This document shows positions 4,206 to 48,452 of a stretch of 64,000 nucleotides of DNA, piece after piece; position 1 is the stretch's first letter; each line of letters opens with the position of its first letter. This DNA comes from Naegleria gruberi (Eukaryota). A program made the translations under genes and the position numbers. The stretch is taken from assembly GCA_000004985.1 (NCBI GenBank), contig GG738854.1; one strand, 5' to 3'. Below the pieces are notes generated by a model. That model worked only from the letters and a program-made list of their open reading frames with translations. It was not told the DNA's origin and made no database searches.

Positions 4206-7200
4206 ATGGTGCACCAAACTGAGTCGTCACCACTTTCCCATGGTGTTGAATCAGAAAGCTGCCGAAAGTCATCTGCGCATCACGGATTAACAACAAGAAC
4301 TCTTCCTCTCATAACGATCCTTCTATTCATTGGATATTGTTGGGTTTTTGTATCATCTTTAACTTTTTTATGGAATCACTCAACTACTAGTAATTACACA
4401 CGCAATTCGCCCAGTTTCGTCTTCATTGAAGCTGCTAATATTTGTTACACAATTTCAAGTACTGATCCAACCGTTTGCTCTGGTAATGGCACATGTATTG
4501 CTTTGAATACTTGTCAATGTTATCCAGGCTATTCAGGTAAGTTTACTTTCGAATTAACGTTGTGATAATCATTTCGTAGGAAATAAATGTACAACACTAA
4601 TAACATGTAATAACCTTGGAGTTAATGATACACAGGTTTGTTCGGGGCACGGTGTTTGTATCGCCAAAAACAATTGTACATGTACAGATGGATATTCAGG
4701 AGCTAGATGTCAAACCGCCATGCAATGTTATGGAATTGACTTTACCAACACGACCTATGTCTGTAACGGTAATGGTAATTGCACTGCTGCCAACAACTGC
4801 ACCTGTAAAGATGGATTTTCAGGTACCAGATGTCAAACAATCAGACAATGTAGTAACATTGATTTTAATGATCCAACAGTTTGTTCTGGCAAAGGATCTT
4901 GTGTTTCGAATAATAATTGTGAATGTCTAACTGGTTATACAGGTAGTCAATGCCAAAATGTCATGAAATGTTACACAATCCCATTTAATGATCCAAGCGT
5001 TTGTTCTGGAAAAGGTCAATGCATTGCTTCGAATAATTGTTCATGTATTCAAGGATTTTCTGGGACTAAATGTCAGAATGATGATTCTATATTTACGTGT
5101 TTTGGTTTTAACTCGACTAACCCTTTGGTTTGTTCTGGAAATGGAAATTGTACATCGAATGGAAATTGTACATGTAAAGAGGGATTTTCTGGGACTAAAT
5201 GTCAAAATGATGACAGCTACTTTACTTGTTATGATATTGATCCATCAAATACAACCTATGTCTGTAATGGAAATGGAAATTGCACAGCTCAAAATAATTG
5301 CACTTGTAAGGAAGGATATTCAGGAACCAGATGTCAAAACGCCATGCAATGTTATGGAATTGACTTTACCAACACGACCTATGTCTGTAACGGTAATGGT
5401 AATTGCACAGCTGCCAACAACTGCACCTGTAAAGATGGATTTTCAGGTACCAGATGTCAAACTAACAATAATTTAATTACATGTGGTGGACTACTTCCAA
5501 TTGATCCACAAGTTTGTTCTGGAAATGGAAATTGCACTGCCAAAAATAATTGTGATTGCCTTTATGGATACGTTGGTAATCAATGTGCTGATTTACTTCA
5601 ATGCTTTACAATTAATTACAGTGAAAGTTCTGTTTGTTCTGGAAATGGAATTTGCATTGAAAAAAACAACTGCTCCTGCTTTGATGGATATACAGGAAAC
5701 AAATGTCAGACATCAATTCTTCATACATGTTATGGATTAAATGAAACTGATCCACTGATATGCTCTGGAAATGGACAATGTGTTCAGAACAATAATTGCT
5801 CATGTATTTATGGATATAGTGGAAATCAATGTCAAAAAGTGTTGAAATGTCACACCATTACATTCAATGATCCATTGGTATGTTCTGGAAATGGAAATTG
5901 TTCGTTGGATGGAAATTGTACTTGTAAACAAGGTTTCAGTGGTAACAAGTGTCAAAATGATGATTCAGTTTTCTCATGTTACGGTTTTAATTCGACAGAT
6001 CCATTGGTTTGTTCTGGAAATGGTAATTGTACTGCTGACAATCAGTGCAATTGTACAGATGGCTTTAGTGGAAATAAGTGTCAGAATAATGATAATTTAT
6101 TCACATGTAATGGAATTGATTCGAATAATGCAACTGTTTGTAGTGGAAATGGAATTTGTATTTCACAGAATAATTGTTCTTGTTTTTCTGGATTTTCTGG
6201 AAACAGGTGCCAAAAGGATGACAATTTTTTCACTTGTTTTGGTATTGACCTATCAAATTCCACAGTTTGTAATGGAAATGGTATTTGCGTTTCACAAAAC
6301 AATTGCACCTGCTTTAGTGGCTATTCAGGAAACAAATGTCAAAATAATGACATGATTATCAGATGTTACGGAATTGAGTCTACTGATAGCTCAGTATGTT
6401 CTGGTCGTGGTAATTGCACCTTTGATAATACTTGTAAATGCAAAGATGGATTCAGTGGAAGTCAATGTCAAAATGATGATAATATTCTCAAATGTTATGG
6501 AGTTGAGTTCAACAGTCCATTTGTTTGCTCTGGAAATGGAAATTGTTCTTCATTTGGTAATTGCTCATGTTTTGAGGGATTTTCAGGGAAAAAATGTGAA
6601 TTTGATTTGAATTCCAATGAGACAGCATCATCTAATTATACATGTTATGGTATTAATGGTGGATTATCTACTGTTTGTTCAGGAAATGGAAATTGCATTG
6701 CAGATAATGTTTGCGAATGTTTCTATGGATTTGATGGGTCTCAGTGTCAGAAAACACTTCAATGTTATGGAATTGATTACAATAATCCAAGCGTATGTTC
6801 AGGCAATGGTATTTGTAATTCAAGAAACTCTTGTTCATGTTATGAAAATTACGTTGACACCAAATGTCAAACGTACAGAGATCCAAACGCCACCTCATTC
6901 AAATGTTATGGTGTTCAATCGAATGATTCAAGTGTTTGTTCTGGCAGAGGAAACTGCACAGCAGATAATTTCTGTGAATGTCAAACAGGCTTTAAAGGTT
7001 CCAAATGTCAAAATTTGGTCAACTATTGCTTTGGCATTGATGAATATTCCAACAATGTTTGTTCAGGAAATGGAAAATGCACAAGTCAAGATACATGTGA
7101 ATGCTCTTCCAATTATTTTGGAAACGATTGTGGTGTTTACATTCTTCCAGAAACAAGTACAATCAAGATTCTTTCCAAATATTTGTATTTGATTGATAGT

Positions 7201-10008
7201 GCAACAGAGAATAATGTGATAACAGTTAGATCACAAAGATTGGTTAATAATTATAAGGGAATGGAAAGTAGATTGAAAAGCGTGTTGATTTTGTCAACTG
7301 AGCTAGTCAATTATGAATTTTCCCAAATTGGGCTTTTTGACAAGTTACAATTGTTTTCAAATATGACTGTTGGTGAATATACAGCAAATTTGACGATTGT
7401 AGATACTGGTTACAATATTGTTGTTGGACAATCTATTGTAAAGTCACTATTTAATGTTATGACTCTCCAACAATTGAGTCAACCTGAAATTCTTTCAAAA
7501 TTAACACCTAAGGAAATTAATCAAATTACAAGAGAATTGAAAAGAATATCAAATGACCAACAAGTTGTCTCCAATATAGTTTCGAATTTCAAGGATAATG
7601 TCAATAACTATACTTTGGATGATGGTTTGGATTTGACATCTTCTTTATTAGATTTGTCAATAACTAAATTAGAATCTAAAGAAAAGATAACTATTTCAGA
7701 AACATTAACTTCTTTCACGCAGAATTTAATTGAAAGCTCGTCAAATTTCACTTCAGAACAAGTGACACCTATTGCCATCAATATTGTGTCTGTGGCTTCA
7801 AATATTCTCGACAATTCTGGCGATAATTCAGCTGGTAAATCGCAAATAATTGGAAAGTCAATCGAATCTATTGAAAAAACTATTTCTTTAATTTCAGTTG
7901 TAAACTCGACAGAAAATTTATTGATTACAACTTCAAAGATTATGGTTTTGCTAATTTCCAAGGCAGAATATAAGAATTCACACGTGATCGATAAGGATTA
8001 TTCTTTATCTCTTCCAGAACTCGATTTTGGATTTTCGTTTGGTTTAGTCAAGTATGAAAATTATTTGACAGATGACTTACAGAATACTACAGCTATTTCA
8101 GATATTCTACAAGTGAGACCATTATCAAATGGAGTATTCACACCACTCCGTAATCTTTTAACTCCATTCAACTTGACCTTCTCTATTAAGAAATACGAAA
8201 CCCCAAATAATGAAACAATCGCAACTGTTGTTTGTAAATATTGGAATGAAACAAGAAGTGAATGGTTGAAGGACGGCTGTGTAACTACAATATTATCAGA
8301 AACTCAAGTAATGTGTTCTTGCTATCACACAACCAAGTTTTCTTCATTTGTAGATTATTCGAATATTGACTTTACAACAAGAACAGCTCAATCTTCACTT
8401 GCAGTTGCTAATATTATATTTAGTTCTATATTCATTGTAATCATTATTGTAATTCTCATTCTATTAGTGGTGTTTAGAAAATCTCAACCTGTCAAATCAA
8501 GACACGTGACTCCTTACCTTGCATTGACATCCTTACTCATTGAAAACTTAGTTTCTGGAATAATTTCTAAAGGACTTTTACTTGACAAGTACAATTTCAA
8601 TATAACCATCATGACAAGCGTCTGTGCAGTCATTTCTACTGCTTTATTGACAAGCGCAGTTTGGTGTTATTTCGTCATGTCTGTTCGATTCATTATTCAT
8701 AGATATTTCTATGAATACATGATGAGAATAGTAGAAAATAGACAGCAGAAGAATAATCTATTAATCAAGATTTTGAATATTTTCAAGCAAGATAAGGTTT
8801 TGATCTTGTCAAGTGTCATGCTTGCTGTTGGATTTATTTTATATTTTGCTATTTTTGTAATTTTGAGAGGAGTTTCTGTATTTTCTGATTCACAATTTAC
8901 CTATTCAACTACTATTTCATTATTTATTTTTTTACTTTCAATGACAGCAATGATTTTTGGCATTTATATTTTAGATTTTTATTTGGATTGCACTAACAAG
9001 CAATTAAGAGATGAATTGGTTGATATTTCAGATGAAATAATGTTAGTAGAAAGTGGAGACTCCCACCTAAGCAATTTGAATTCCAGAAAATCACTCAAGA
9101 TTACAAAACCATTTATTGAGCTATTGGAACAATCTCAAGTGAAAAAGATTGTGAGCTTGTTTTATTCGAATGACAAGCTCATGTTTAGACCAGAGGCAGT
9201 TTTCTTCATGACTGGTATGCTCTTCTTTACAGTTTCGTACTGTTTAGGATTTGCAAGCGTCAATGATCGTTACTTAATCAACCCTTCAGCTGCCATAACT
9301 CAACATGTTGATGTGTTAGATGCCATATCATTCCTCTTTGACATTCTCATGACTATTTGTTTTATCATTAGTTTCGGTGGTTTCTCCGTTTGTTGGGCCA
9401 TTGTAATTGAATCCAGAAAGAAGAATTGTTTCGTTGAATCTAAACAAGTTGTTATTAAGGAACGAATTAAGTCTCAAAGATTGGAAAATCTTGCAGATAT
9501 GACCGACAAGTTTGATATTTACAAACTCATGAAAAACAAGTATTTGCTTAGATTATTCCGTCAATATTCGAAACTGGAAATGTCATTAGAAAATTATGTA
9601 ATTTGGATGAGAATTGAACATGCCAAGTCTAAATTTGCTAAATTATGGATAGAAATGGAAGGAGAACCAGAATCGATTGAGGAATGGAATTTATTGTTAC
9701 AAGAATTGGAGGAATGGTTGACAGAGCATATTTCATCAGAAGCTGAGCTATCTCTCAATGTCAGTGCTCGTTCAAAGAAGCAGTTTGTGACAGCAGTGAG
9801 AGTATTGGAAACTAAGGTTGCAAGTATTCCATCAAAGAATAGAGATTCTTTATTGAATTTGAAACAAACTGTCAGAGATGCTATTGAATCATTGACCACT
9901 GATGTTTTATATAATTTGATGGACACTTATTCAAGATTTATCATTACTAATGAATACAAAGCCATGAAGGAAGTAGAAGCAGTTACAGAAATGACAACTT
10001 TCAAATAA
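4206..10008 (+). CDS. adhesion-GPCR-like receptor (latrophilin-like, LrlA-type): N-terminal signal anchor, ~34 EGF-like repeats, GPS motif, 7TM; 2 exons
   Basis: Exon 1 is 4206..4536 (ATG 'aaacaacaaaATGgtg'; M-VHQTES.., then TM 'LPLITILLFIGYCWVFVSSLTFL', then the first EGF module). The intron is 4537..4579 (GTAAGT..TAG, 43 nt, phase 1). Exon 2 is 4580..10008, joining the 1762-aa track ORF in frame. Tandem 'C.G.D...P.VCSGNG.C...N.C.C..GFSG..CQ' modules run through about 7140. The GPS motif 'CKYWNETRSEWLKDGCVTTILSETQVMCSCYHTTKFSSF' lies at about 8232-8350, followed by seven hydrophobic helices (about 8400-9420) and a cytoplasmic tail. About 1919 aa. Confidence 0.7.
4700..4838 (+). repeat. intragenic near-identical direct repeat, copy 1 (one EGF unit)
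   Basis: Bases 4720-4838 match 5344-5462 at 118 of 119 positions (actgctgcc vs acagctgcc). Identity extends about 20 nt upstream with 1-2 mismatches. This explains the identical alternative-frame track ORFs 4616..4930 and 4988..5476. Confidence 0.8.
5324..5462 (+). repeat. intragenic near-identical direct repeat, copy 2
   Basis: See copy 1. The two copies are 624 nt apart inside the EGF-repeat array of the adhesion-GPCR-like gene. Confidence 0.8.
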
Positions 10009-10308
10009 CATTTTAAATAGCTGATTGTGAATAGTGATAACTAGTGTTAATATTTTATTGAATGAAAATTTCTGGTAGATTTAGTTTACAGTAACCATTG
10101 TATTACACAGATATTTACAGTTCATTGTAATTTAGGATATCCTCTTTAAATGTTTCGAATAGCTTTAATAATGACAGATGTTTTCCATCAACACAATTTT
10201 TTGTTTTTCGTAGAACACATTTATACACCAACTCGTCAAGTCACTCATTTCGAATTAGGAATTCATCATTTCCATCAGCACAACAGAAACTTAAAAACAC
10301 AAAAAAAA

Positions 10309-12342
10309 ATGCAAGATTCCATTAGCACCAGTAGCTCTGGCAGTAGTAGTAGACAATTCATCAATCCAAGCTTGTTTAAACCATACTCCGCTACACCTTC
10401 TTCTGAGCAAGGTCAACAAGACGAAACAATTTACATTTCGGATAAACCATTTCCACTATTCGAATTCGATGCTACCAAAGAGAAATGGCAGATGAATCAA
10501 GATGCCTTTGCTAAATTAGAAACTGTGAGTGGTTCTGGCTTTGTGAAAGTAATTTCTGTGGTTGGTGCCTATCGTTTAGGTAAAAGTTATTTGATGAATC
10601 AGATAATGAATGGTAAGAAAGGAGGTTTCGAATTGGGACACACCACAGAGAGTATGACTAAAGGTGTATGGGCCTGGGGTGAGGTTGTTCATGATCCACA
10701 AGTTGGCACTCATATTCTTCTCTGTTTGGATTCTGAAGGTCTTTTAGATGTCGATAGAGAGGACGAAACTTTTGACATGTCACTTTTCTGCATATTGACA
10801 ATGTTGTCAAGTTATATGATTATCAATTTGGAAAAGAGAATAAGTAGCGATGATCTTAACAAGTTGGCTTTTGCATCTGATTTTACAAATATGATTGTCA
10901 CTGATCAACAAGATGACAAGGATTACAATCATGAAGATATTCAATATTATACTCCACAATTATTATGGCTAGTAAGAGATTTTACATTGAAATTGAAAGG
11001 AACAGAGCAAGAATACTTGAATGAGATATTAAATGAAGAGGATAAAAAGAAAAAGTCAAATGTCTCTCTAATTAAGAAGAATATTAAGAAGTATTTTGGT
11101 GACAAGATGGAGCTCAAGACTTTACCATGTCCAAGCAGTGATGAAGATGTATTGACAACCATTGAAGAGAGTGGTGATCAATTATCTGAGAAATTTGTTA
11201 ATGGAATGAAATCTTTGGTCAACCACATTAGAACAACAGCTTCCCTTAAAAAGATACTTTCTCCAAAGAGTAATCGTGAAATGTATCTCGACACAATGGG
11301 ATTTTACTATTATTGTAGAAAATTAGTGGAACAATTGAATGAAAATGCCAAACAAATTCAAATTCCAAACACATTCGAATCAGTCTTGACACAACAACTT
11401 GAATCTATTCTAAACGAAACGTTGGAGAATTATGATAAGAAGATTCAAAGCTTTATTGCTAAATTCCCAATTGAGGAAGATTCCCTCTTGGATATTCATA
11501 GTGAAGTTTCCAATTTTTATATGCAGAAAGCTCTCAATAGAGTTCCACATTTCAAGAGAGAAGAATTCCATGAAACTTTGTTGATTTCCCTTGGAGAAGT
11601 TTCGTTTAAGGATAATCCAGAAGAAGTTCAATTGAATTCTAGTTCCAAACTATACAATCTTCTTGAGAGAAACAGGGACGAATCTGAAAGATATTGTGAA
11701 CAAATCTATATTAAGGAAATTAATTCTGTCAAGTCAAAGATGTACTCTGTTGTTGAACAATGCAGAAGTGATTTGGAATTTGTTAGAGCTAATCTTCTTC
11801 AACAATTGATGGGTCCAGCTGCCAACAAGTACATGACTAAATTCTTCAGTGAATCCCAAGAAATAATGAAACAAACTATTCTCTGTCAAAAGATTGATCA
11901 AGCAGAGAAGGAAAAGGAGGTTTTAAAGGAGGAGATTTATAATATGAAAGAACAAAGAAAGCAACTGGTTGAGCTCATTCAAAAAGAACGAACACAAACA
12001 AACTCTGCCATGCAACAATTGCAGAGTCAACAACAAGCTCTCGAACAGCAAATTCAATTAGAAAAACAATCAGCCTCAAGTCAGATCAGTAACTTGAAAA
12101 ATCAATTGGAAAATATACCAAAGGCCACACCAACAGTCATTTACCAAACTGTTTCAGAGCCAAGCAAAAGTACTTGTAGTAGTAGTAGAAGTAGTAGATA
12201 TTACTCTAGCTCAGATGATGATGATTATTATTCAAGAGGTAGTAGAAGAAGCAGTGGTGGTAGAAGTGGAAAAACATTTTACAAAGGTGGCCAGTTTATT
12301 CCAGGTGGTGGAAGAGCTCCAAAAGGAGGCGTTTGGATGTAA
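10309..12342 (+). CDS. guanylate-binding-protein (GBP)-like large GTPase, dynamin superfamily
   Basis: Start taken at 'aaaaaaaaATGcaagattcc' (10309); the upstream part of the 10150 track ORF begins with a non-ATG codon and looks like 5' leader. The P-loop 'VVGAYRLGKSYLMNQIM' matches GBP 'GLYRTGKSYLMN'. The downstream helical domain has coiled-coil Q-rich segments and an S/R/G-rich C-tail. Confidence 0.65.
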   Translation: MQDSISTSSSGSSSRQFINPSLFKPYSATPSSEQGQQDETIYISDKPFPLFEFDATKEKWQMNQDAFAKLETVSGSGFVKVISVVGAYRLGKSYLMNQIMNGKKGGFELGHTTESMTKGVWAWGEVVHDPQVGTHILLCLDSEGLLDVDREDETFDMSLFCILTMLSSYMIINLEKRISSDDLNKLAFASDFTNMIVTDQQDDKDYNHEDIQYYTPQLLWLVRDFTLKLKGTEQEYLNEILNEEDKKKKSNVSLIKKNIKKYFGDKMELKTLPCPSSDEDVLTTIEESGDQLSEKFVNGMKSLVNHIRTTASLKKILSPKSNREMYLDTMGFYYYCRKLVEQLNENAKQIQIPNTFESVLTQQLESILNETLENYDKKIQSFIAKFPIEEDSLLDIHSEVSNFYMQKALNRVPHFKREEFHETLLISLGEVSFKDNPEEVQLNSSSKLYNLLERNRDESERYCEQIYIKEINSVKSKMYSVVEQCRSDLEFVRANLLQQLMGPAANKYMTKFFSESQEIMKQTILCQKIDQAEKEKEVLKEEIYNMKEQRKQLVELIQKERTQTNSAMQQLQSQQQALEQQIQLEKQSASSQISNLKNQLENIPKATPTVIYQTVSEPSKSTCSSSRSSRYYSSSDDDDYYSRGSRRSSGGRSGKTFYKGGQFIPGGGRAPKGGVWM

Positions 12343-18949: not shown

Positions 18950-21061
18950 TTACAAATCGTCAACTCCATTCACTATAACTGCTTCTTTCTTGTGGAGGTC
19001 ATAGATATGCTTCCACTCTGTGTATTGTTTAGTTCTCCTCAATCTAGAGAATGTATCATAAATGTTCAGAGCAAGCTCTGGTAGTAAAATATTGAGAATA
19101 TCTTGTCTATTGAGAATGTACTCATCTGGTAAATTCTGTTGATCCATTTCAATACAGAATTGAAGATAGGCCTTCCTAGATCTAGCACTTATGTTGACCT
19201 CAAATTTGGCATAACTTTTGATGAAGGTGTGGAATATATCTTTCATTCCAGCAACTGATACCTGTTTAGAATAGTCAGCAATCATTAGTTTTTCAAAAAG
19301 GAGGTAATTTTCATAGGAGCTTTCATTAATAGAGTACTCTTTGAAAAGCTCTCTTACATCCTTATTCGCAACTAAAATCCTTTCAATAGCCGTAATATCT
19401 TTCGATTCTGTACTGTTGTGCTTTGAATTGGAACCTCTTCTCCTTACGAAACCTCTTATTGAATAATAAATCTCAATAATCATTGCATTACCACCATAGA
19501 AGAAGAACATTACGAGCGCAATCGCTATTCTCACTGCCAAATTTACTGAAGTAGCCGATGATGAATTATTTGGTGTAATAATAATGAAAATAACCAGCAA
19601 GATCACAATGGCTAAGAAAACCATGAGGTCAATTCTGATATAAGCTGGATCATCAAAGAGTAAAAACTTTGCCAATCCTCCCTCCTTAATATTCTTCCTA
19701 TTGATTATCATATCAATTGCAATGCACAATAGAGCAAAGAAACATCCAATCAGAGTAATAATGAAAATATACAAGGTGAATGAAATGAATATCTTGTAAG
19801 GATCCAATACAATGATAATTACAATTGGTATCAGCAAAATCACAGCAAATATCACTGAAAATAAGAGAACCAACACAACTCCAACTGTACTCGATGCAAG
19901 TCTCCTCAGCACCTGAGTATATCTTCCATTCAGTTTCCTGATGAGAACATATAAATTTCTCAAATAAATCCATCTCACAATACTGAGAGCATACACCAAA
20001 CACATTATATTGAACACAAACAATGATGCCAATGAGCTAGCAGTCGCACAATTCACTCTAAACGGAGCTGTCCACAAATTGGTATAGAGAAATGCACAAG
20101 CTGGACATAAATACGGAATCAACAATCTTCTCTTCAGTGAAGGTCTCTTAAACATTCCAAATAGAAAGAAAACCACGTAAAATGAAACATAAACAAAGAA
20201 CATGGTATAATTGGAGAAATCTAGTGGAGTAAAATCGGAATAACTCATACATGCACTTGTGGAACAGTCAGAACAGGTTGCATTCCACAGGATCATTTCA
20301 GATTGATGACTTTGTATGAATTCTGAAATATTCCTTTCGTATAATAATACTTGATTGACAATATTCCAATCAGGTGTTAATCGAATAGATCGAATTCTTT
20401 CAATTTTAGAAATATCCTCTGTTGAGAAATTCAGAAAATTTCTTCCTCTATCCAAAACTATCATGTCATGTAAATTCGAAACTTTACAATCATTCGAATA
20501 TAAAATCAAATTCGTCCTCGTATCCACCTCCTTCTTTAAAATTGAAACTTTCTGATCTAATCCCCCAGAATCAACAATTAACTGCGAAGGAAATATTGGA
20601 AACATTACAAAATCCGAAATTTCATAACCCTCCTTTCGAATACTTTTCTTGGGCGAAATATAACGATTCCTTCTCACTGCAAATGTAAAAACACTAGAAG
20701 GTGCCAAAATTCCATCATAATTATCAAAGAAATGTCCAATAAAACAATCCGAATAGAAATAATCAACTTGTACAAGTGACATTTTGAAACTGGACGAAAC
20801 TTCATTCCAAATCTGAGAACAAGGTTGCGAATTTTGACAAGCTATTCGAAGGTTTGTGTGATTTGCAATTCTATCATTTAGAATAAACAAGGAGAATGTA
20901 TCAAATGCTCCAATAATTTTAGAATTATTTAAAAGATTCGAATAGAATATTGTACTGTTTTCTTGGCCGAAAGTAAAATATTTCATCAACACAGTGATTG
21001 TGATAATCGTCAGAAATGCGTCAAATTTGATGGGCCTAGTCGGTATTAGTATTAGATTCAT
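18950..21061 (-). CDS. 7TM receptor fused to a C-terminal RGS domain (AtRGS1-like architecture)
   Basis: ATG at 21061 follows an 11-A run on the coding strand; the track's 21094 start is TTG. N-terminal signal peptide 'MNLILIPTRPIKFDAFLTIITITVLM', an ectodomain of about 270 aa, seven hydrophobic helices, then the RGS motif 'ELFKEYSINESSYENYLLFEKLMIADYSK...EVNISARSRKAYLQFCIEMD'. Confidence 0.65.
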   Translation of the reverse strand: MNLILIPTRPIKFDAFLTIITITVLMKYFTFGQENSTIFYSNLLNNSKIIGAFDTFSLFILNDRIANHTNLRIACQNSQPCSQIWNEVSSSFKMSLVQVDYFYSDCFIGHFFDNYDGILAPSSVFTFAVRRNRYISPKKSIRKEGYEISDFVMFPIFPSQLIVDSGGLDQKVSILKKEVDTRTNLILYSNDCKVSNLHDMIVLDRGRNFLNFSTEDISKIERIRSIRLTPDWNIVNQVLLYERNISEFIQSHQSEMILWNATCSDCSTSACMSYSDFTPLDFSNYTMFFVYVSFYVVFFLFGMFKRPSLKRRLLIPYLCPACAFLYTNLWTAPFRVNCATASSLASLFVFNIMCLVYALSIVRWIYLRNLYVLIRKLNGRYTQVLRRLASSTVGVVLVLLFSVIFAVILLIPIVIIIVLDPYKIFISFTLYIFIITLIGCFFALLCIAIDMIINRKNIKEGGLAKFLLFDDPAYIRIDLMVFLAIVILLVIFIIITPNNSSSATSVNLAVRIAIALVMFFFYGGNAMIIEIYYSIRGFVRRRGSNSKHNSTESKDITAIERILVANKDVRELFKEYSINESSYENYLLFEKLMIADYSKQVSVAGMKDIFHTFIKSYAKFEVNISARSRKAYLQFCIEMDQQNLPDEYILNRQDILNILLPELALNIYDTFSRLRRTKQYTEWKHIYDLHKKEAVIVNGVDDL

Positions 21062-43712: not shown

Positions 43713-44028
43713 TTCTTCTTTTCAAAAAACTATTTAGCAATCTTTTTCATATTAAATCGCTATTGCCTTTTTATGAGATATCAACAAGCAGTCTATTTAT
43801 TACTTGATTTTGTAAAGTTTTTTCTTTTCCTATCATCTTTCTGCTCAAAAAAAATCCACTTTAACTCTTGTTAATTCCATTGGTGAGTAGTGTCGATAGA
43901 TCTGTAAGCGTTTTGGCTCATTAACCTTTTCGTGAGTATCCCCGCCTTAGTTACAATCGCTTTTCCATCGAACCAGTAATCTCCAGTCTGCACTTGAAGA
44001 ACCAAAGTCACGTTGATCTCAAAAAAAA

Positions 44029-46281
44029 ATGTTTAGTAACTGCCATCATCATGATGATGCTGAACGTGTAGTAATTATATTGGACGATCATGACAAATTT
44101 ATGGAACAATTATTGAATAGCAAATATAAACAAGAACGAAATTTATCATGCTACAAACAAATATTAAAATATTTAACTAATACGAGAGGTTTAATATTAA
44201 AGTATTATGAATTACCTGTTATATTACGAAGAGATCGGAGATTCATCACTGAAATTGCACAAACTTTTGAATTTTACCAACAATTACCTGAAGAATTTAA
44301 ATCCGATAAACAAGTAATGCTAAATTGTTTTAAAAAGAAAGTATTTAATGGAAGTGATATTAAGAGTGGATATATTCCCTCTAATTTAATGAATGATAGG
44401 AAATTTATATTGGAATTAATTGAAGGAAATCCAACATGTCTCTATTTAGTACCGAAAGAAAGAGAATTCGTGTTGGCAGCAATGAAACACGATATTATAT
44501 ATTTGGGATTTCTCCCAGGAAGTGAAAAGAAGAATGAATCATACATGTGGGAATTGTTTTTGAAAAATTGGGAAAATTTAAGATTTGCAAGTGGTGAATT
44601 ACTAAATAATCCATCATTTGCTATAAAAGTAAGAAAGCATGATACCAATACTTTCAACTATTATTGTGGACGGCCACATTTGGCGGTTCATGCAAGGGAT
44701 AAATTTCGAAATAATAGAGAATATGTGCTTTTTGCTATTTTACATGGAAAAGCTGATTTTACAATGATAAAAAAGGTATTTCAAGCGGATTTGGAAATTA
44801 AAATGGCAAATAATATTAAAACTGATGCCTCCTTATGGAAATTAAAGGAAGAATGGGCAAATGACAAGGAAATGATTTTGAAATATGTCAAACATAATTC
44901 AAATATATTGAAATTTATTAATTTGGAATTACTACAGGATTATGAATTTAATATTAAATTAATTTACAAAAATATTGAAAGTATTCAATTTATTAATGAA
45001 TGCAATACTAATTTTAAACAATTATTTACACAATCAGATAAAACTGAATTAATTTCTAGATATTTAAGCAACAAAAAATTTAACATTAATTCCAAAATTA
45101 TAAATCCAACTAATATTAGAGCATTTGGTTCCAAAATTAATTATATACATTTTATAGAGGAATATTTAAATGAAAACGATTTAATTTATATAACAAGTAA
45201 TATTGATGGACAAGCATGTTACGGTTTGTTAAACGTAATTTCCAATAAGAAAATTTTCAATGAATGCTTACAATTATGGAAAATAACAGTTAAAAAGCAT
45301 TATTCATGTTATGAATTATTTAATATAAAATATACCAAACAAGATATTATTGAGATAATTTCATCCATGCATGAATCTCCTTTTCCATTCCTGGCACACA
45401 TTGATAGAAATGTATTTAGCTCTGAGAGTGAAGTTCTTCTCATTGCAATTCAAACCCATTTCAAGTGCTTTGAATTGGCAAGTAAAGAACTGAAATCTGA
45501 CTTGAATTTTATTAGAAAGTCAGTCAATTTAAATAGAAATATTATTAAAGTAATAGATTTGCAAATTGTACAAGATAATTTGGATTTATTGATTATTTAT
45601 ATAAATTATAAATTAAAAATCAATACCATGTATGGATATCAAAATAGCGCTCATGCATTAAATCCATTAATTAACATATTAGCAAAACATTTACAAAATG
45701 AGGATACAGTTTTACAATTAGTAGAAATACCCCAATTTGTAAATTTATTTTATGGCCATATAGATATTAATTTAAGATCAAGTGAGGAATTCTGTTTAAA
45801 AATATTAAAAACAGATTTGAATAATGCCACTAAAATTCCAAATTTAATTAAATATAGAAATTTCATAATTGAATTTCTAAAAGAGGGAAAATCCATTACA
45901 TTCATTCCTAAAATATTCGAACAGGATGAGGAATTTTTACATTTATTTTTTAAAAACTGGAATCGTACGGAATACCTTCCAATATTACCAGCGGATGAAA
46001 TTTTTATTGGTATTCTAATTAAGGAATTGAAAATTAACCCATCCATATATAGAAATTTTAATAATAGTGATCCGTTGAAACATAATTGGGATATATTATT
46101 GAATGTTGCCAGAGATGTAAATAGCTGTTTAGTTTTTCCCACCACAATATGGCAAGATGAGAATTTTAAATTGGAACTTGTGAAGAGAGGAATTTTTCCA
46201 CCTTCCTTTTTGAAACATTTTAATAGCATTTTGAACGATATGGATTTGATTGTAGAAAATGGTTTTTACTTGATTCAATAA
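44029..46281 (+). CDS. DUF4116 repeat-containing protein
   Basis: 750-aa ATG ORF after an A9 run. At least 8 tandem ~30-aa repeats of the DUF4116 type ('D/N-+-E/Q-hydrophobic-hydrophobic-L-x-hydrophobic-hydrophobic-K-x-N'): 'DKQVMLNCFKKKVFNGSDI', 'DRKFILELIEGNPTCLYLV', 'EREFVLAAMKHDIIYLGF', 'NPSFAIKVRKHDTNTFNYY', 'NREYVLFAILHGKADFTMI', 'DKEMILKYVKHNSNILKFI', 'DYEFNIKLIYKNIESIQFI'. Confidence 0.55.
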   Translation: MFSNCHHHDDAERVVIILDDHDKFMEQLLNSKYKQERNLSCYKQILKYLTNTRGLILKYYELPVILRRDRRFITEIAQTFEFYQQLPEEFKSDKQVMLNCFKKKVFNGSDIKSGYIPSNLMNDRKFILELIEGNPTCLYLVPKEREFVLAAMKHDIIYLGFLPGSEKKNESYMWELFLKNWENLRFASGELLNNPSFAIKVRKHDTNTFNYYCGRPHLAVHARDKFRNNREYVLFAILHGKADFTMIKKVFQADLEIKMANNIKTDASLWKLKEEWANDKEMILKYVKHNSNILKFINLELLQDYEFNIKLIYKNIESIQFINECNTNFKQLFTQSDKTELISRYLSNKKFNINSKIINPTNIRAFGSKINYIHFIEEYLNENDLIYITSNIDGQACYGLLNVISNKKIFNECLQLWKITVKKHYSCYELFNIKYTKQDIIEIISSMHESPFPFLAHIDRNVFSSESEVLLIAIQTHFKCFELASKELKSDLNFIRKSVNLNRNIIKVIDLQIVQDNLDLLIIYINYKLKINTMYGYQNSAHALNPLINILAKHLQNEDTVLQLVEIPQFVNLFYGHIDINLRSSEEFCLKILKTDLNNATKIPNLIKYRNFIIEFLKEGKSITFIPKIFEQDEEFLHLFFKNWNRTEYLPILPADEIFIGILIKELKINPSIYRNFNNSDPLKHNWDILLNVARDVNSCLVFPTTIWQDENFKLELVKRGIFPPSFLKHFNSILNDMDLIVENGFYLIQ

Positions 46282-46943
46282 CCCTATTTATTCATCTTCA
46301 ATATACTGCTGCAAAAATAAATCAAATAAATGAAGATAAGCTTATTAAACTAGGAAGGAATACAGAATTAACCGACAAATCACTAAAGAAAGATAAACAA
46401 GCTTCATCATCAAAGAACAGTAAGGAAGAAAATCCTGAGGAAATCAATAGAAAGTGGCATTTAAATTCTAGAAGGAAAAGAAATCCACAACAGTTTAAAA
46501 CTCTTTCTCCCTAAAGAAGAAACTAAACAAATAGAGACAAACATGAAGCTTTTATCATCTGGCTCATCGACGATTATAAGTAATACATCATGTTGATTAA
46601 GAGTTTGATTATTAAAATGTCTAACAAGGTCCAAAATGTAAGATTGTGAAATTGTATTCACGTATCATAAGTAAGAAGATGTTGTCCTTTCCAATTGAAA
46701 CATTTTTTTGATAAGAAAACTATTTCTAGAATTGAAATTGCCAGAATCAATAAGGGTTCTGAAGTAAAGGTGTTAAAGAAGAGAGATTGGAGGAAACAAG
46801 TTCAATTGGAAAGAGAAAAATGTATAAATTCATGCATTTTCCTCAAATATTCTCCATTGGAAAGAAATCAATGAATTGTGAATTTAGGTAAATTCTGATA
46901 AATTTCCAAATTAAATAAAAAACTCTCAGAGTTTATATGTAAA

Positions 46944-48452
46944 TTACATAACTGGATTTGTAATGATAATGTCAATATCGAAAAGTTGATGGTTTTCTGG
47001 TGATTCATGCAAGTATGTTTTCAGTTTTGCAAGCATTTCCTTCTCACTCTTTGATGTAAATATTGGGAGATATGGTGAGCAAGCAACCATAGTATTCCAA
47101 CCTCCGCATGCAACACAAACAGCTTTCAATTGGATATTTCCCCCAGAGTTGATTTTCATAGAGTCTGGGAATAAATTCATTTCTGATAGAGTTGTTTGAG
47201 TTTTCAAAATTCCTGGTTGATTTTGTTCCTCCTTTGTACTTTGATTGAATCCACTGTGTCCAAACAAGTAAGCTTTACCTTCAGAATCAAGAGCTGCTGA
47301 GTGATAACCTCCACAACTCACTTGAACAATATTCTTGAAATTTTTGTGTTCAAATAAACGACAATCCTCAGCACCACTCTCGGATTTTCTATTGAGACAA
47401 TTATATTGATTTCTTCCGCATGAGTAGACCACCCCTTCCTGAGTAGTAAATAAGGTGTGATAGTAACCAGAGTCAGCTGTCACTACTTTGTGATTAAATC
47501 CTTCAACCTTTTTTGTTGTATGCTTTCCATTTGCTGATCCAAAAAGCATATGACCCAATTCACCACAAGCATAAACTTCTCCCTGATCAGTAATGAAAAA
47601 ACTATAGTCATAACCACCAGATGCAGAAATTAATTTAGGGATTCCAGTGATTTTAGTGATAGCTCTTCCAAAACCTTGCCCACAACAGTAGGCATTTCCA
47701 TCAAAACTTACAAAGATTGAATGATAGTAACCTGCGTGAATGGATCTGATCTTTTCAGGTATATCAATCTTGTGTGTCAAACCTTTGTATCCTTCACTCA
47801 ATTGACCATGAGAGTTATCTCCACAGCCGTACACATCACCTTCCTTGGATAAAAACAATGTAAAGTAATATCCACAAGATGCTTGAACAATAAAGTGAGG
47901 AATTAATTCAGAAAAAATTTTAAAATCTTTCAATTCACTTTCTGATCTATCAACTCCGACCTGACCATTAGAATTAGAACCACAGCCCAATGCAAATCCA
48001 TCTTCAGTAATTGCAATAGCTTCTGTATAGCCCATAACGACTGAACTAATCTTGAATGGTGATCGAATATATGCAGGATTCTCAGCATCAGAAATTGCGA
48101 TCCAATTATCACCAAGGCCTCTCATCGAACTAGTTTCACCAAAACTAAACAAAACAGCTTGGGAAGCTTCCAACAGAGAGAAGGATGTTGGTTCGGATTT
48201 ATCGTTACGATAGGCTATTCTAGCTTTTATCATTTCTTTAAATTTAGCAGTATAGAAAGTAGCCTGATCTTTACGAAACTTGGTATCTTGACTTTGATAG
48301 GAGGCATCAATGTGAGGAATACTCATACTAGGAATAATTCCAATAGCACCAAATGATTTGGATTCACCTTGAAGACCACCCGATCCATTGTTTGAAGTTT
48401 CGGTTGATGATTTTGGTTTCTTCTTGAAAATGTTGGTGACGAAAGAAAGCAT
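46944..48452 (-). CDS. RCC1-repeat (regulator of chromosome condensation-like) beta-propeller protein
   Basis: 502 aa; ATG at 48452 after an A-run. Six or seven RCC1 blades with the 'G.V+.CG.N..GQLG' signature: 'GFALGCGSNSNGQVGVD', 'GDVYGCGDNSHGQLSEG', 'GNAYCCGQGFGRA', 'GEVYACGELGHMLFG', 'GVVYSCGRNQYNCLN', 'GKAYLFGHSGFNQS'. Confidence 0.7.
   Translation of the reverse strand: MLSFVTNIFKKKPKSSTETSNNGSGGLQGESKSFGAIGIIPSMSIPHIDASYQSQDTKFRKDQATFYTAKFKEMIKARIAYRNDKSEPTSFSLLEASQAVLFSFGETSSMRGLGDNWIAISDAENPAYIRSPFKISSVVMGYTEAIAITEDGFALGCGSNSNGQVGVDRSESELKDFKIFSELIPHFIVQASCGYYFTLFLSKEGDVYGCGDNSHGQLSEGYKGLTHKIDIPEKIRSIHAGYYHSIFVSFDGNAYCCGQGFGRAITKITGIPKLISASGGYDYSFFITDQGEVYACGELGHMLFGSANGKHTTKKVEGFNHKVVTADSGYYHTLFTTQEGVVYSCGRNQYNCLNRKSESGAEDCRLFEHKNFKNIVQVSCGGYHSAALDSEGKAYLFGHSGFNQSTKEEQNQPGILKTQTTLSEMNLFPDSMKINSGGNIQLKAVCVACGGWNTMVACSPYLPIFTSKSEKEMLAKLKTYLHESPENHQLFDIDIIITNPVM

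What the first reader, a model, noticed from the sequence alone, without database searches (positions are those of the whole stretch)
4206..10008. LrlA-type adhesion GPCR with an unusually long EGF array and a fresh internal repeat duplication
The gene combines an N-terminal TM, about 34 Dictyostelium-style EGF modules, a canonical GPS (CxxW...W...GC...CxCxH-T-F) and a 7TM core. This is the family-2/adhesion-GPCR architecture, rare outside Metazoa. Two EGF units (4720-4838 and 5344-5462) are 118/119 identical at the DNA level although 624 nt apart. That indicates very recent unit duplication or gene conversion, so the array is actively expanding or contracting.
Basis: partly seen in the sequence, partly recalled or inferred. 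Interest (0 to 1): 0.5.

Follow-up and report, generated by a model that had tools for sequence, protein, structure and literature searches.

The report
Naegleria EGF–GAIN–7TM receptor fused to RGS
This is a real Naegleria gruberi gene for a cell-surface receptor that looks like an animal adhesion GPCR outside the cell (21 EGF repeats and a self-cleaving GAIN/GPS domain) but ends inside in an RGS domain that switches G proteins off; this receptor type was already described in the sister species N. fowleri, and it is not a Dictyostelium LrlA-type receptor.

Summary
The window is Naegleria gruberi NEG-M, not a dictyostelid. The locus is NAEGRDRAFT_64551 (EFC47500 / D2V6T6, "predicted protein").

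My gene model (4206-4536 + 4580-10008, 1919 aa) adds a signal/anchor segment and two EGF units that the public 1762-aa model lacks.

Architecture:
- 21 EGF modules, not about 34
- an Ig-like domain
- a full GAIN domain with a canonical GPS (C..W..W..GC..CxCxH-T|T-x-F)
- 7 TM helices

An exhaustive profile search finds only 92 relatives. Nearly all of them are GPS(H-T-T)-7TM-RGS proteins; those that carry names are from Naegleria or Willaertia. Bosch et al. 2022 described this "7TM RGS" family in N. fowleri and showed GAP activity for three paralogues.

The 118/119 repeat is confirmed (122/123 over 4716-4838 vs 5340-5462). Flanking units are not similar, so gene conversion between units 3 and 8 fits better than a block duplication.

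Verdict: new member of a known kind, moderate interest.

The parts
4206..4536 (+). Exon 1. It encodes the start Met, a 30-aa hydrophilic N-terminus, a hydrophobic signal/anchor segment (aa 31-57, nt 4296-4376) and most of EGF unit 1. It is absent from the public model EFC47500, which starts at ATG 4720.
   Evidence: Translation is. Exon 1 is collinear with the N-terminus of paralogue P0001 (MVHQT/MPLHQT start, hydrophobic segment, 'FVFIEAANICYTISSTDPTVCSGNG' vs 'FFVNAATTCYGVDSTDPSVCSGNG', and GYSG|NKC across the splice junction). The exact look-up that identified the public model is.
4537..4579 (+). 43-nt intron (GTAAGT...TAG). It restores the reading frame between exon 1 and the long ORF.
   Evidence: The sequence is. 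The spliced CDS is 5760 nt, in frame and without internal stops. No transcript evidence was available.
4443..7131 (+). Array of 21 six-cysteine EGF modules (35-36 aa cores, period 120-150 nt). The intron lies inside unit 1.
   Evidence: Pfam gives EGF_2 at 292 bits in 21 stretches, plus EGF_Teneurin and EGF_TEN.
4716..4838 (+). Near-identical copy A (the linker plus EGF unit 3) of the gene-conversion pair.
   Evidence: 122/123 identical to 5340-5462.
5340..5462 (+). Near-identical copy B (the linker plus EGF unit 8), 624 nt (five units) downstream of copy A.
   Evidence: The intervening and following unit pairs 4/9, 5/10, 6/11 and 7/12 are only 58-68% identical.
7162..7461 (+). Ig/fn3-like beta-sandwich domain between the EGF array and the GAIN domain (aa 972-1071).
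   Evidence: In the AF2 model the strands are E12-111 with pLDDT 60-87.
7465..8364 (+). GAIN domain. The helical subdomain A is aa 1073-1218 and the beta-sandwich subdomain B is aa 1224-1372.
   Evidence: The AF2 model has pLDDT of about 80-90 here. Foldseek against the PDB gives BAI3 GAIN at E 6.5e-10, then BAI2, CD97, GPR126, CELSR1, ADGRL3 and GPR56.
8233..8340 (+). GPS motif CKYW..W..GC..CSCYH-T|T-KF (aa 1329-1364). The predicted scissile bond is T1361|T1362, just before nt 8332. The Stachel-like strand TKFSSFVDYSN follows at nt 8332-8364.
   Evidence: Pfam GPS scores 35.2 bits against a cut-off of 22.5. C, W, G, C, C, C, H, T and F are invariant in 41 relatives. H-T-T lies in the turn before the last GAIN strand of the model.
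8371..9417 (+). Seven-transmembrane domain with a GPCR fold and a roughly 60-aa ICL3. Family motifs are RKxQPVKSR..TPY (ICL1), DPLxFRxE (before TM6) and FGG (TM7).
9490..10005 (+). C-terminal RGS box (nine helices, aa 1748-1919). The stop codon TAA is at 10006-10008.
   Evidence: Pfam RGS scores 24.9 bits against a cut-off of 23.9. The four-sequence RGS alignment A3 matches RGS10, RGS5, RGS2, RGS17 and RGS8 in the PDB, down to E 1.5e-4. Foldseek matches RGS8 and RGS16 with TMt 0.7-0.8. Residues in the SxEN, (E)xN and D-T-x-x-R motifs are invariant or nearly so in 41 relatives.

Best explanation
The locus encodes a member of the heterolobosean 'adhesion-type 7TM-RGS' receptor family. This is N. 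gruberi NAEGRDRAFT_64551, extended here to 1919 aa.

Shown here:
- A signal/anchor segment comes first, followed by 21 extracellular EGF modules and an Ig-like domain.
- A complete GAIN domain follows. Its GPS carries the catalytic H-X-T triad (H1360-T1361|T1362) and a Stachel-like strand (T-K-F-S-S-F-V), 13 residues before the predicted TM1 helix.
- A GPCR-fold 7TM bundle follows.
- A cytosolic RGS box retains the G-alpha-contact residues.

Inferred mechanism, by analogy with AtRGS1 and with the N. fowleri paralogues whose RGS boxes are proven GAPs on self-activating G-alpha subunits:
- At rest the RGS box, held at the membrane by the 7TM, accelerates GTP hydrolysis on Naegleria G-alpha proteins and keeps them off.
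- Ligand, matrix or prey contact, or force on the EGF stalk, is relayed through the GAIN domain. It may be autocleaved, exposing or repositioning the tethered T-x-F-x-x-F-V peptide.
- The signal passes to the 7TM bundle and changes the availability of the RGS box, through conformation, clustering or endocytosis. This releases G-alpha signalling.

The EGF array:
- It evolves by exchange between units. Units 3 and 8 were homogenised by a gene-conversion tract of about 120-190 nt.
- The unit number differs between paralogues (21 vs 12) and across the family (0-35).

The confidence given applies to the identity and architecture. The signalling mechanism itself I rate at about 0.4.
For: - Identity and organism: the window is N. 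gruberi.
- Domain calls.
- GAIN fold.
- GPCR fold of the 7TM.
- RGS box with conserved contact residues.
- Family definition: the 7TM profile finds only 92 representatives among 1.84e9 proteins. Offline checks found a CxCxH-T-T-x-F (or H-A-T) motif in 78 of these, just N-terminal to the 7TM match in most, and an RGS match at E<0.01 after the 7TM in 82. Pfam on 44 members gives RGS in 36, GPS in 30, EGF in 11, REJ in 5 and NHL in 3. Named members come from N. gruberi, N. fowleri, N. lovaniensis and Willaertia magna.
- Literature: N. fowleri encodes 28 7TM RGS proteins, several with GPS, EGF and lectin ectodomains. The RGS boxes of 7TM RGS2, RGS3 and RGS4 are GAPs for Nf G-alpha 2, 3, 5 and 7, two of which are self-activating (PMC9283941). 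H-X-S/T is the catalytic GPS motif (PMC13062082). The aGPCR tethered-agonist consensus is TxFAVLM (PMC12716839), against the family consensus T-x-F-x-x-F-x-E here, with A/S at +4 and I/L/V at +7 in most of the sequences printed.
- Gene conversion.
- Copy-number differences.
Against: - No experiment on this protein exists. GPS cleavage, GAP activity, ligand and localisation are all unknown.
- H-X-S/T is necessary but not sufficient for cleavage (PMC13062082).
- The Pfam RGS score is only 1 bit above threshold, and the paralogues P0002 and the window's second 7TM-RGS fall below it. Assignment therefore relies on the profile, the structure and conserved residues.
- Coupling between the GAIN/Stachel and the RGS box is pure inference.
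- The N-terminal hydrophobic segment starts at residue 31 and may be an uncleaved anchor, which would give an 8-TM topology with a membrane-tethered N-terminal fragment.
- Exon 1 and the intron have no transcript support here.
Confidence: 0.85

Rival explanations
1. It is a bona fide, highly divergent class-B2 adhesion GPCR. In this view the 7TM is homologous to 7tm_2, activates G proteins through its tethered agonist, and merely carries an appended RGS box for fast shut-off. The GAIN-7TM module would then be ancient, shared by Discoba and Amorphea.
For: - The GAIN domain lies directly upstream of a GPCR-fold 7TM with aGPCR-like spacing. The Stachel-like pattern is T-x-F-x-x-F-V against TxFAVLM.
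- The inactive CD97 holoreceptor (8ikj) aligns over 526 columns, which would span GAIN plus 7TM.
Against: - There is no Pfam 7tm_2 hit at E<=1 for this protein or for 44 relatives.
- The exhaustive profile search returns only 92 proteins and none of the thousands of aGPCR or secretin receptors.
- The 28-sequence family profile hits no GPCR in the PDB at E<=10.
- In N. fowleri the tested G-alpha partners include self-activating subunits that need no GEF (PMC9283941).
Confidence: 0.12
2. One reading: a dictyostelid orthologue of LrlA, a family-2 latrophilin-like GPCR.
For: - AT-rich genome (GC about 0.34).
- EGF modules of the C-x-C-x5-G-x2-C type, which are also common in Dictyostelium.
- A GPS followed by 7 TM helices.
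Against: - Window ORFs are identical to N. gruberi NEG-M proteins on one 665-kb scaffold.
- Amoebozoan family-2 receptors, including LrlA, have the 7tm_2 signature and no GAIN or N-terminal domains (PMC10445921). That is the opposite of what is found here.
- The RGS domain is not part of LrlA.
Confidence: 0.01
3. The near-identical pair reflects a very recent duplication that added units to the array (expansion), rather than gene conversion between pre-existing units.
For: - Units 3, 7 and 8 share the rare 36-aa 'NTTYVCNGNGNC' variant.
- Arrays in this family clearly change length: 21 vs 12 units in the two paralogues and 0-35 across the family.
Against: - The copies are five units apart. An unequal crossover would duplicate the whole five-unit block, yet units 4/9, 5/10, 6/11 and 7/12 are only 58-68% identical.
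- The high-identity tract is about one unit long. It has a sharp 3' edge at 4838/5462 and a decaying 5' edge. This is typical of a conversion tract.
Confidence: 0.15
4. The identical unit is an assembly artefact, with a read or contig mis-joined inside a repetitive array.
For: Repeat arrays are error-prone in assemblies. No reads could be inspected, and no independent assembly was found (the cluster of P0106 has one member; the metagenome scan gave 0 hits).
Against: - The reading frame and the six-cysteine pattern are intact through both copies and their junctions.
- One substitution distinguishes the copies.
- The flanks of each copy are unique and in register.
- The 624-nt spacing is short. 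From my own recollection the NEG-M genome was Sanger-sequenced, and such reads could span both copies; this was not checked.
Confidence: 0.07

Closest known systems
Naegleria fowleri 7TM RGS proteins (Nf 7TM RGS1-4 and 24 paralogues; Bosch, Jeck & Siderovski, J Biol Chem 2022, PMC9283941)
   Same: - Same genus and same architecture: EGF-like or lectin ectodomain, GPS motif, 7TM and a C-terminal RGS box.
- A N. fowleri 'GPS domain-containing protein' (KAF0978770) is in the cluster of P0002, which is 34% identical across GAIN-7TM-RGS.
- The RGS boxes of three members are proven GAPs.
   Different: - This is a different species and a different paralogue. None of the published RGS1-4 primers occurs in the window.
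- The published work noted GPS motifs only.
- No biochemical data exist for this protein.
Metazoan/holozoan adhesion GPCRs (class B2; e.g. ADGRE5/CD97 with EGF repeats, ADGRL/latrophilins, ADGRB/BAI)
   Same: - Long adhesive ectodomain, with an EGF array as in CD97/EMR and CELSR.
- GAIN domain with four Cys, two Trp and the H-X-T triad, and a tethered-agonist-like strand T-x-F-x-x-hydrophobic-hydrophobic.
- A GPCR-fold 7TM immediately after the GAIN domain.
   Different: - The 7TM is not detectably 7tm_2, by sequence or preferentially by structure.
- The residue before the scissile bond is Thr (H-T-T) almost throughout the family, rather than Leu.
- There is a C-terminal RGS (GAP) domain, so the predicted output is the opposite of GEF signalling.
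- The lineage is Discoba, whereas the GAIN-7TM linkage is currently thought to be restricted to holozoans (PMC12716839).
Arabidopsis AtRGS1 and other 7TM-RGS proteins of plants and protists (Trichomonas, stramenopiles, chytrids, filastereans; PMC3971589)
   Same: - Seven TM helices followed by a cytosolic RGS box.
- Proposed logic: a receptor-GAP restrains self-activating G-alpha subunits and is relieved by an extracellular cue.
   Different: - As far as I know, AtRGS1 has only a short N-terminus and no GAIN, GPS or EGF ectodomain (not checked here).
- Homology between the two 7TM domains was not tested here.
Polycystin-1 / sea-urchin REJ family (GAIN-containing non-GPCR membrane proteins)
   Same: - GAIN/GPS directly before the first TM helix.
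- Five relatives of this protein carry REJ domains and two carry PKD domains upstream of the GPS.
   Different: - This protein has no REJ, PKD or PLAT hit.
- It has 7 TM helices with a GPCR fold, whereas polycystin-1 (from my own knowledge) has 11 TM helices and a channel-like C-terminus.
- It carries an RGS tail.
Dictyostelium discoideum LrlA (family-2 latrophilin-like receptor)
   Same: A non-metazoan protist 7TM protein that has been discussed in the context of adhesion GPCR origins.
   Different: LrlA has the 7tm_2 signature and lacks GAIN and N-terminal domains (PMC10445921). The protein here has a GAIN domain and an EGF array, lacks 7tm_2, and carries an RGS box. The organism is also different.

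Membership tests
Adhesion GPCR (class B2) | GAIN domain fold containing a GPS motif (4 Cys, 2 Trp) | tested here: met
   Pfam GPS scores 35.2 bits against 22.5. The AF2 model has a six-helix subdomain A and a beta-sandwich subdomain B. Foldseek matches the BAI3, BAI2, CD97, GPR126, CELSR1, ADGRL3 and GPR56 GAIN domains at E 6.5e-10 to 3e-4.
Adhesion GPCR (class B2) | Catalytic H-X-S/T triad at the GPS | tested here: met
   H1360-T1361-T1362 is present. H and the +1 Thr are invariant in 41 relatives. The motif definition comes from PMC13062082.
Adhesion GPCR (class B2) | Autoproteolysis actually occurs | not testable with these tools
   This needs a Western blot of tagged protein and H1360A / T1362A mutants. 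The motif alone is not sufficient (PMC13062082).
Adhesion GPCR (class B2) | 7TM domain belonging to the secretin/adhesion family (Pfam 7tm_2, PF00002) | tested here: not met
   [not shown]
Adhesion GPCR (class B2) | Tethered agonist (Stachel) TxFAVLM-like sequence after the cleavage site | tested here: inconclusive
   T-K-F-S-S-F-V is present here. T+1, F+3 and F+6 are conserved family-wide (consensus T-x-F-x-x-F-x-E), and most sequences printed have A/S at +4 and I/L/V at +7. It matches the hydrophobic pattern of TxFAVLM. The same residues are, however, needed simply to form the last GAIN strand.
Adhesion GPCR (class B2) | Activates heterotrimeric G proteins (GEF activity) | not testable with these tools
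   A biochemical assay is required.
Dictyostelium LrlA-type family-2 receptor | 7tm_2 signature; short N-terminus without GAIN; amoebozoan gene | tested here: not met
   There is no 7tm_2 hit. A GAIN domain and an EGF array are present. The genome is N. gruberi. The LrlA description is from PMC10445921.
Naegleria-type GPS-7TM-RGS family (Bosch et al. 2022) | Seven TM helices followed by a C-terminal RGS box | tested here: met
   An RGS match follows the 7TM in 82 of the 92 relatives.
Naegleria-type GPS-7TM-RGS family (Bosch et al. 2022) | Sequence homology of the 7TM and RGS to Naegleria family members, including N. fowleri proteins | tested here: met
   P0001 (N. gruberi paralogue) is 68% identical. 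P0002, whose cluster includes N. fowleri KAF0978770, is 34% identical over GAIN-7TM-RGS. P0004 (N. lovaniensis) and P0007 (Willaertia) are also relatives. Direct identity to Nf 7TM RGS1-4 could not be checked because no sequences are held and their primers are absent from the window.
Naegleria-type GPS-7TM-RGS family (Bosch et al. 2022) | RGS box retains G-alpha-contact residues (SxEN in the alpha3-alpha4 loop, the Asn of the alpha5-alpha6 loop, D..R of alpha7-alpha8) | tested here: met
   The motifs read 'EMSLENY', 'LSLNVS' and 'MDTYSRF'. E817, E821, N822, N877, D932 and R936 are invariant in 41 sequences. They are aligned to RGS10 and RGS8.
Naegleria-type GPS-7TM-RGS family (Bosch et al. 2022) | GAP activity on Naegleria G-alpha subunits | not testable with these tools
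   This is shown only for N. fowleri 7TM RGS2, RGS3 and RGS4 (PMC9283941).
Plant-type 7TM-RGS (AtRGS1) | 7TM domain homologous to that of AtRGS1 | not tested
Polycystin-1/REJ family | REJ, PKD and PLAT domains with an 11-TM channel-like C-terminus | tested here: not met
   There are no REJ, PKD or PLAT hits in this protein, and it has 7 TM helices. REJ or PKD domains do occur in some relatives.

The most novel reading that the evidence does not exclude
A GAIN domain with a conserved tethered-agonist-like strand is wired to a GPCR-fold 7TM bundle that is not of the adhesion/secretin sequence family, and whose output is an RGS GAP. On this reading Heterolobosea either independently assembled, or retained from a very early eukaryote, a force- or contact-sensing 'inverse adhesion receptor' that signals by releasing a brake on self-activating G-alpha proteins. 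This would contradict the current view that the GAIN-7TM module arose in stem holozoans (PMC12716839). It would also give a second, independent system in which to test the Stachel mechanism.
Probability: 0.3. Interest if true: 0.7.

Novelty: new member of a known kind. Interest (0 to 1): 0.38.

Why it matters
- The family shows that a GAIN domain placed directly on a seven-helix receptor is not confined to animals and their close relatives. In Naegleria it is coupled to a G-protein off-switch rather than an on-switch.
- This bears on how adhesion GPCRs originated, and on whether tethered-agonist mechanosensing is a general solution that evolved more than once.
- The relatives in N. fowleri are candidate surface targets in a nearly always fatal pathogen.
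- For this locus specifically, the practical results are a corrected gene model (157 more N-terminal residues, including the signal/anchor), a functional annotation for a 'predicted protein', and a clear example of gene conversion inside an EGF array.

Tried and rejected
- Word-indexed homology searches returned only two relatives and not the window's own public protein. They gave the false impression that P0001 was an orthologue from another species. Exact look-ups showed that the window is N. gruberi itself and that P0001 is a paralogue.
- The look-up of encoding contigs had no record for P0001, P0101 or the window ORFs. No synteny or paralogue DNA could therefore be examined.
- The primers of Nf 7TM RGS1-4 are not in the window.
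- I considered that the second 7TM-RGS gene in the window (18953-21061, minus strand) belongs to the same 7TM family. I rejected this because the family 7TM HMMs give no hit and it has no intact GPS.
- I considered a five-unit block duplication for the repeat. I rejected it on the unit identity matrix.
- The AFDB fold library was unavailable, so comparison with the AtRGS1 7TM was not possible.
- A metagenome scan for the repeat core found nothing, so there is no independent assembly against which to check the repeat.

Full report
**1. What is at the coordinates**

The + strand carries one long gene. The frame opened by ATG 4206 runs to a GTAAGT donor at 4537. A 43-nt intron ends in TAG at 4579, and the frame continues from 4580 to a TAA at 10006-10008. 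The spliced CDS is 5760 nt and encodes 1919 aa.

Exact-sequence look-ups show that the window is Naegleria gruberi NEG-M. Ten window ORFs are identical to proteins on one 665,159-bp scaffold, among them EFC47499, 47500, 47503, 47504, 47506, 47508 and 47511. GC is about 0.34.

The public model for this gene is EFC47500.1 / XP_002680244 / NAEGRDRAFT_64551 / UniProt D2V6T6, annotated as "predicted protein". It is the 1762-aa ORF starting at ATG 4720.

The longer model is supported by collinearity with the paralogue P0001:
- the start (MVHQT vs MPLHQT);
- the hydrophobic segment;
- the first EGF unit;
- the splice junction (GYSG|NKC vs GFSGNKC).

There is no transcript evidence for the longer model.

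**2. Checking the observation**

Pfam finds 21 EGF_2 stretches (292 bits), and a six-cysteine regex also finds 21 units.

GPS scores 35.2 bits against a gathering score of 22.5. The motif is CKYW-x6-W-x4-GC-x11-CSCYH-T-T-K-F. Hydropathy and two AlphaFold models give seven TM helices after it.

No Pfam 7TM family, 7tm_2 included, is hit even at E<=1. Instead, the last ~170 residues hit RGS at 24.9 bits against 23.9.

The repeat claim holds:
- 4720-4838 vs 5344-5462 is 118/119 identical.
- The exact tract is 4716-4838 vs 5340-5462, 122/123.
- Weaker similarity extends upstream to 4656/5280.
- Among the 210 unit pairs the mean DNA identity is 63 +/- 5%. The next best pair is 79%.

**3. What the protein is**

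A profile of the 7TM region (window, P0001, P0002) was searched exhaustively against 1.84 billion representatives. It found only 92 proteins at E<=1e-3.

Offline analysis of these hits shows:
- A CxCxH-T-T-x-F motif (H-A-T in three) in 78 of them, just N-terminal to the 7TM match in most.
- An RGS match at E<0.01 downstream of the 7TM in 82.
- EGF counts from 0 to 35.

Pfam scans of 44 members give RGS in 36, GPS in 30, EGF in 11, REJ in 5, NHL in 3 and PKD in 2. No 7TM family is listed. Named members come from N. gruberi, N. fowleri, N. lovaniensis and Willaertia magna.

In a 41-sequence alignment the invariant residues are:
- GPS: the Cys, Trp and Gly residues, plus His, Thr and Phe;
- ICL1: a Pro;
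- before TM6: an Arg;
- TM7: a Gly;
- RGS: E817, E821, N822, N877, N929, D932 and R936.

**4. Structure**

An AlphaFold2 model of residues 961-1919 (41-sequence alignment, mean pLDDT 80.9) shows, in order:
- an Ig-like beta-sandwich;
- a six-helix bundle;
- a beta-sandwich in which H-T-T sits in the turn before the final strand (TKFSSFVDYSN);
- seven TM helices;
- a nine-helix C-terminal domain.

Foldseek against the PDB returns:
- the GAIN domains of BAI3 (E 6.5e-10), BAI2, CD97, GPR126, CELSR1, ADGRL3 and GPR56 as the only significant hits;
- RGS8 and RGS16 for the C-terminus (TM-score 0.7-0.8 on the target);
- class A GPCRs, weakly, for the 7TM.

No adhesion GPCR is in the top 60. Foldseek gives nothing at E<=1e-3. 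A 28-sequence family profile hits no GPCR in the PDB at E<=10.

The 7TM therefore has a genuine GPCR fold. It is a sequence orphan with no preference for class B2.

**5. The RGS box**

The four-sequence RGS alignment A3 matches RGS10, RGS5, RGS2, RGS17 and RGS8 (best E 1.5e-4).

By my reading of the canonical R4-family RGS/G-alpha interface, the residues that contact G-alpha are retained and family-invariant:
- S-x-E-N ("EMSLENY");
- the Asn of the alpha5-alpha6 loop ("LSLNVS");
- D-x-x-x-R ("MDTYSRF").

**6. Literature**

- Bosch, Jeck and Siderovski (2022, PMC9283941) reported that N. fowleri expresses 28 seven-transmembrane RGS proteins. Several have GPS motifs and EGF-like or lectin ectodomains "reminiscent of the adhesion GPCRs". 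The RGS boxes of 7TM RGS2, RGS3 and RGS4 are selective GAPs for G-alpha 2, 3, 5 and 7, two of which self-activate. The architecture is therefore already described in the sister species. None of their primers matches the window.
- 7TM-RGS fusions in general are widespread in bikonts (PMC3971589).
- LrlA and other amoebozoan family-2 receptors have 7tm_2 but no GAIN or N-terminal domains (PMC10445921). The "LrlA-type" label fails on every count.
- A 2025 survey concludes that GAIN-7TM linkage is restricted to holozoans and arose in stem holozoans (PMC12716839). The Naegleria family is an unintegrated counter-example, at least at the level of architecture.

**7. Likely mechanism**

Shown here are the domain order, the topology (ectodomain outside, RGS inside), an intact catalytic triad and intact G-alpha-contact residues.

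The following is inferred, by analogy with AtRGS1 and the N. fowleri data:
- The membrane-tethered RGS box acts as a constitutive GAP on self-activating G-alpha subunits.
- Engagement of, or force on, the EGF stalk is transmitted through the GAIN/Stachel element to the helical bundle.
- This alters the availability of the RGS box and de-represses G-alpha.

The Stachel-like pattern is T-x-F-x-x-F-x-E family-wide, usually with A/S at +4 and I/L/V at +7, against TxFAVLM in aGPCRs. That fits a tethered ligand. It is equally explained by the requirements of the last GAIN strand.

Whether cleavage occurs cannot be told from sequence (PMC13062082).

In this subfamily the N-terminal hydrophobic segment begins at residue 31-76. 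In most relatives it begins at residue 1-30. It may therefore be an uncleaved anchor, which would keep a cleaved N-terminal fragment in the membrane.

**8. The repeat**

The identical units are numbers 3 and 8, five units apart. If a five-unit block had duplicated, units 4/9, 5/10, 6/11 and 7/12 should also be similar. They are only 58-68% identical.

The tract has three zones:
- about 99% identity for 123 nt;
- about 78% for the 64 nt upstream;
- a sharp end at the unit boundary 4838/5462.

This is the signature of gene conversion between non-adjacent units, possibly repeated. It is not the signature of expansion.

Array length does change over longer times:
- The in-genome paralogue P0001 has 12 units, and its central units 4-9 are 83-94% identical at the protein level (mean 70%, against 53% in the window's array).
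- Only the terminal units look positionally conserved between the two paralogues.

An assembly artefact cannot be excluded without reads. It is unlikely given the intact frame, the unique flanks and the single distinguishing base. No independent assembly was found.

**9. Verdict**

This is a real and correctly located gene with a partly correct domain reading, but the wrong organism and the wrong family. The key RGS domain was overlooked.

It is a new, uncharacterised and mis-annotated member of an already described Naegleria GPS-7TM-RGS receptor family.

The residual interest lies in the evolutionary and mechanistic question of a GAIN domain driving a non-class-B 7TM with a GAP output.

Noticed in passing
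window 4206-4719 vs the public model starting at 4720: The GenBank/UniProt model (EFC47500 / D2V6T6, 1762 aa) starts at an internal Met in the linker before EGF unit 3. It lacks the signal/anchor segment and two EGF units. The extended 1919-aa model is supported by collinearity with paralogue P0001.
   Followed up: yes
window 18953-21061 (minus strand): A second 7TM-RGS gene of about 703 aa lies in the same window. It has an N-terminal ectodomain, seven hydrophobic helices and a C-terminal RGS box (27% identical to the target's; Pfam RGS 16 bits, below threshold). It has no intact GPS: 'ACMSYSDF' occupies the place of CxCxHTTxF. The family 7TM HMMs do not detect its 7TM, so it belongs to a different 7TM-RGS subfamily. 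This exact sequence is not in the public protein collection.
   Followed up: partly
window 49504-53535 (+): A 1343-aa single-pass membrane protein. It has a signal peptide, many NHL repeats (Pfam NHL and Teneurin-NHL), one EGF module, and then a GPS-like stretch 'CMYYDESEKVWKSDGV...LTCKTFHLTSF' with a canonical H-L|T, followed by one TM helix and a short tail. The GC and the second Cys of CxC, which I take to be a disulphide pair in canonical GPS motifs, are both missing. Pfam GPS does not hit it at E<=1. Teneurin-like NHL and EGF parts and an adhesion-receptor-like gene thus lie within 45 kb of each other.
   Followed up: partly
family-wide (P0001-P0092), GPS position: The residue before the scissile bond is Thr (H-T-T) in nearly every family member, and H-A-T in three. 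This differs from the Leu typical of animal aGPCRs, while the neighbouring single-pass protein uses H-L-T. The reason for the strict Thr is unexplained.
   Followed up: partly
relatives P0003-P0092 (Pfam scan): Ectodomains of the family are very diverse. They include EGF arrays of up to 35 units, REJ domains (5 of 44), PKD domains, Teneurin-type NHL propellers, RCC1-like propellers and fn3. This parallels the domain shuffling seen in animal aGPCRs and polycystin-1.
   Followed up: no
window 10150-12342 (+): Immediately downstream lies a 730-aa ORF with a guanylate-binding-protein (GBP) GTPase domain (Pfam GBP, E 1.7e-46) and a long coiled-coil, Ser-rich tail. This exact ORF is not in the public protein collection, so its public model probably differs.
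   Followed up: no
window 44001-47000: A marked GC dip (0.24-0.29, against about 0.34 elsewhere) overlaps ORF 44029-46281 (EFC47511, 750 aa).
   Followed up: no
[not shown]
   Followed up: no
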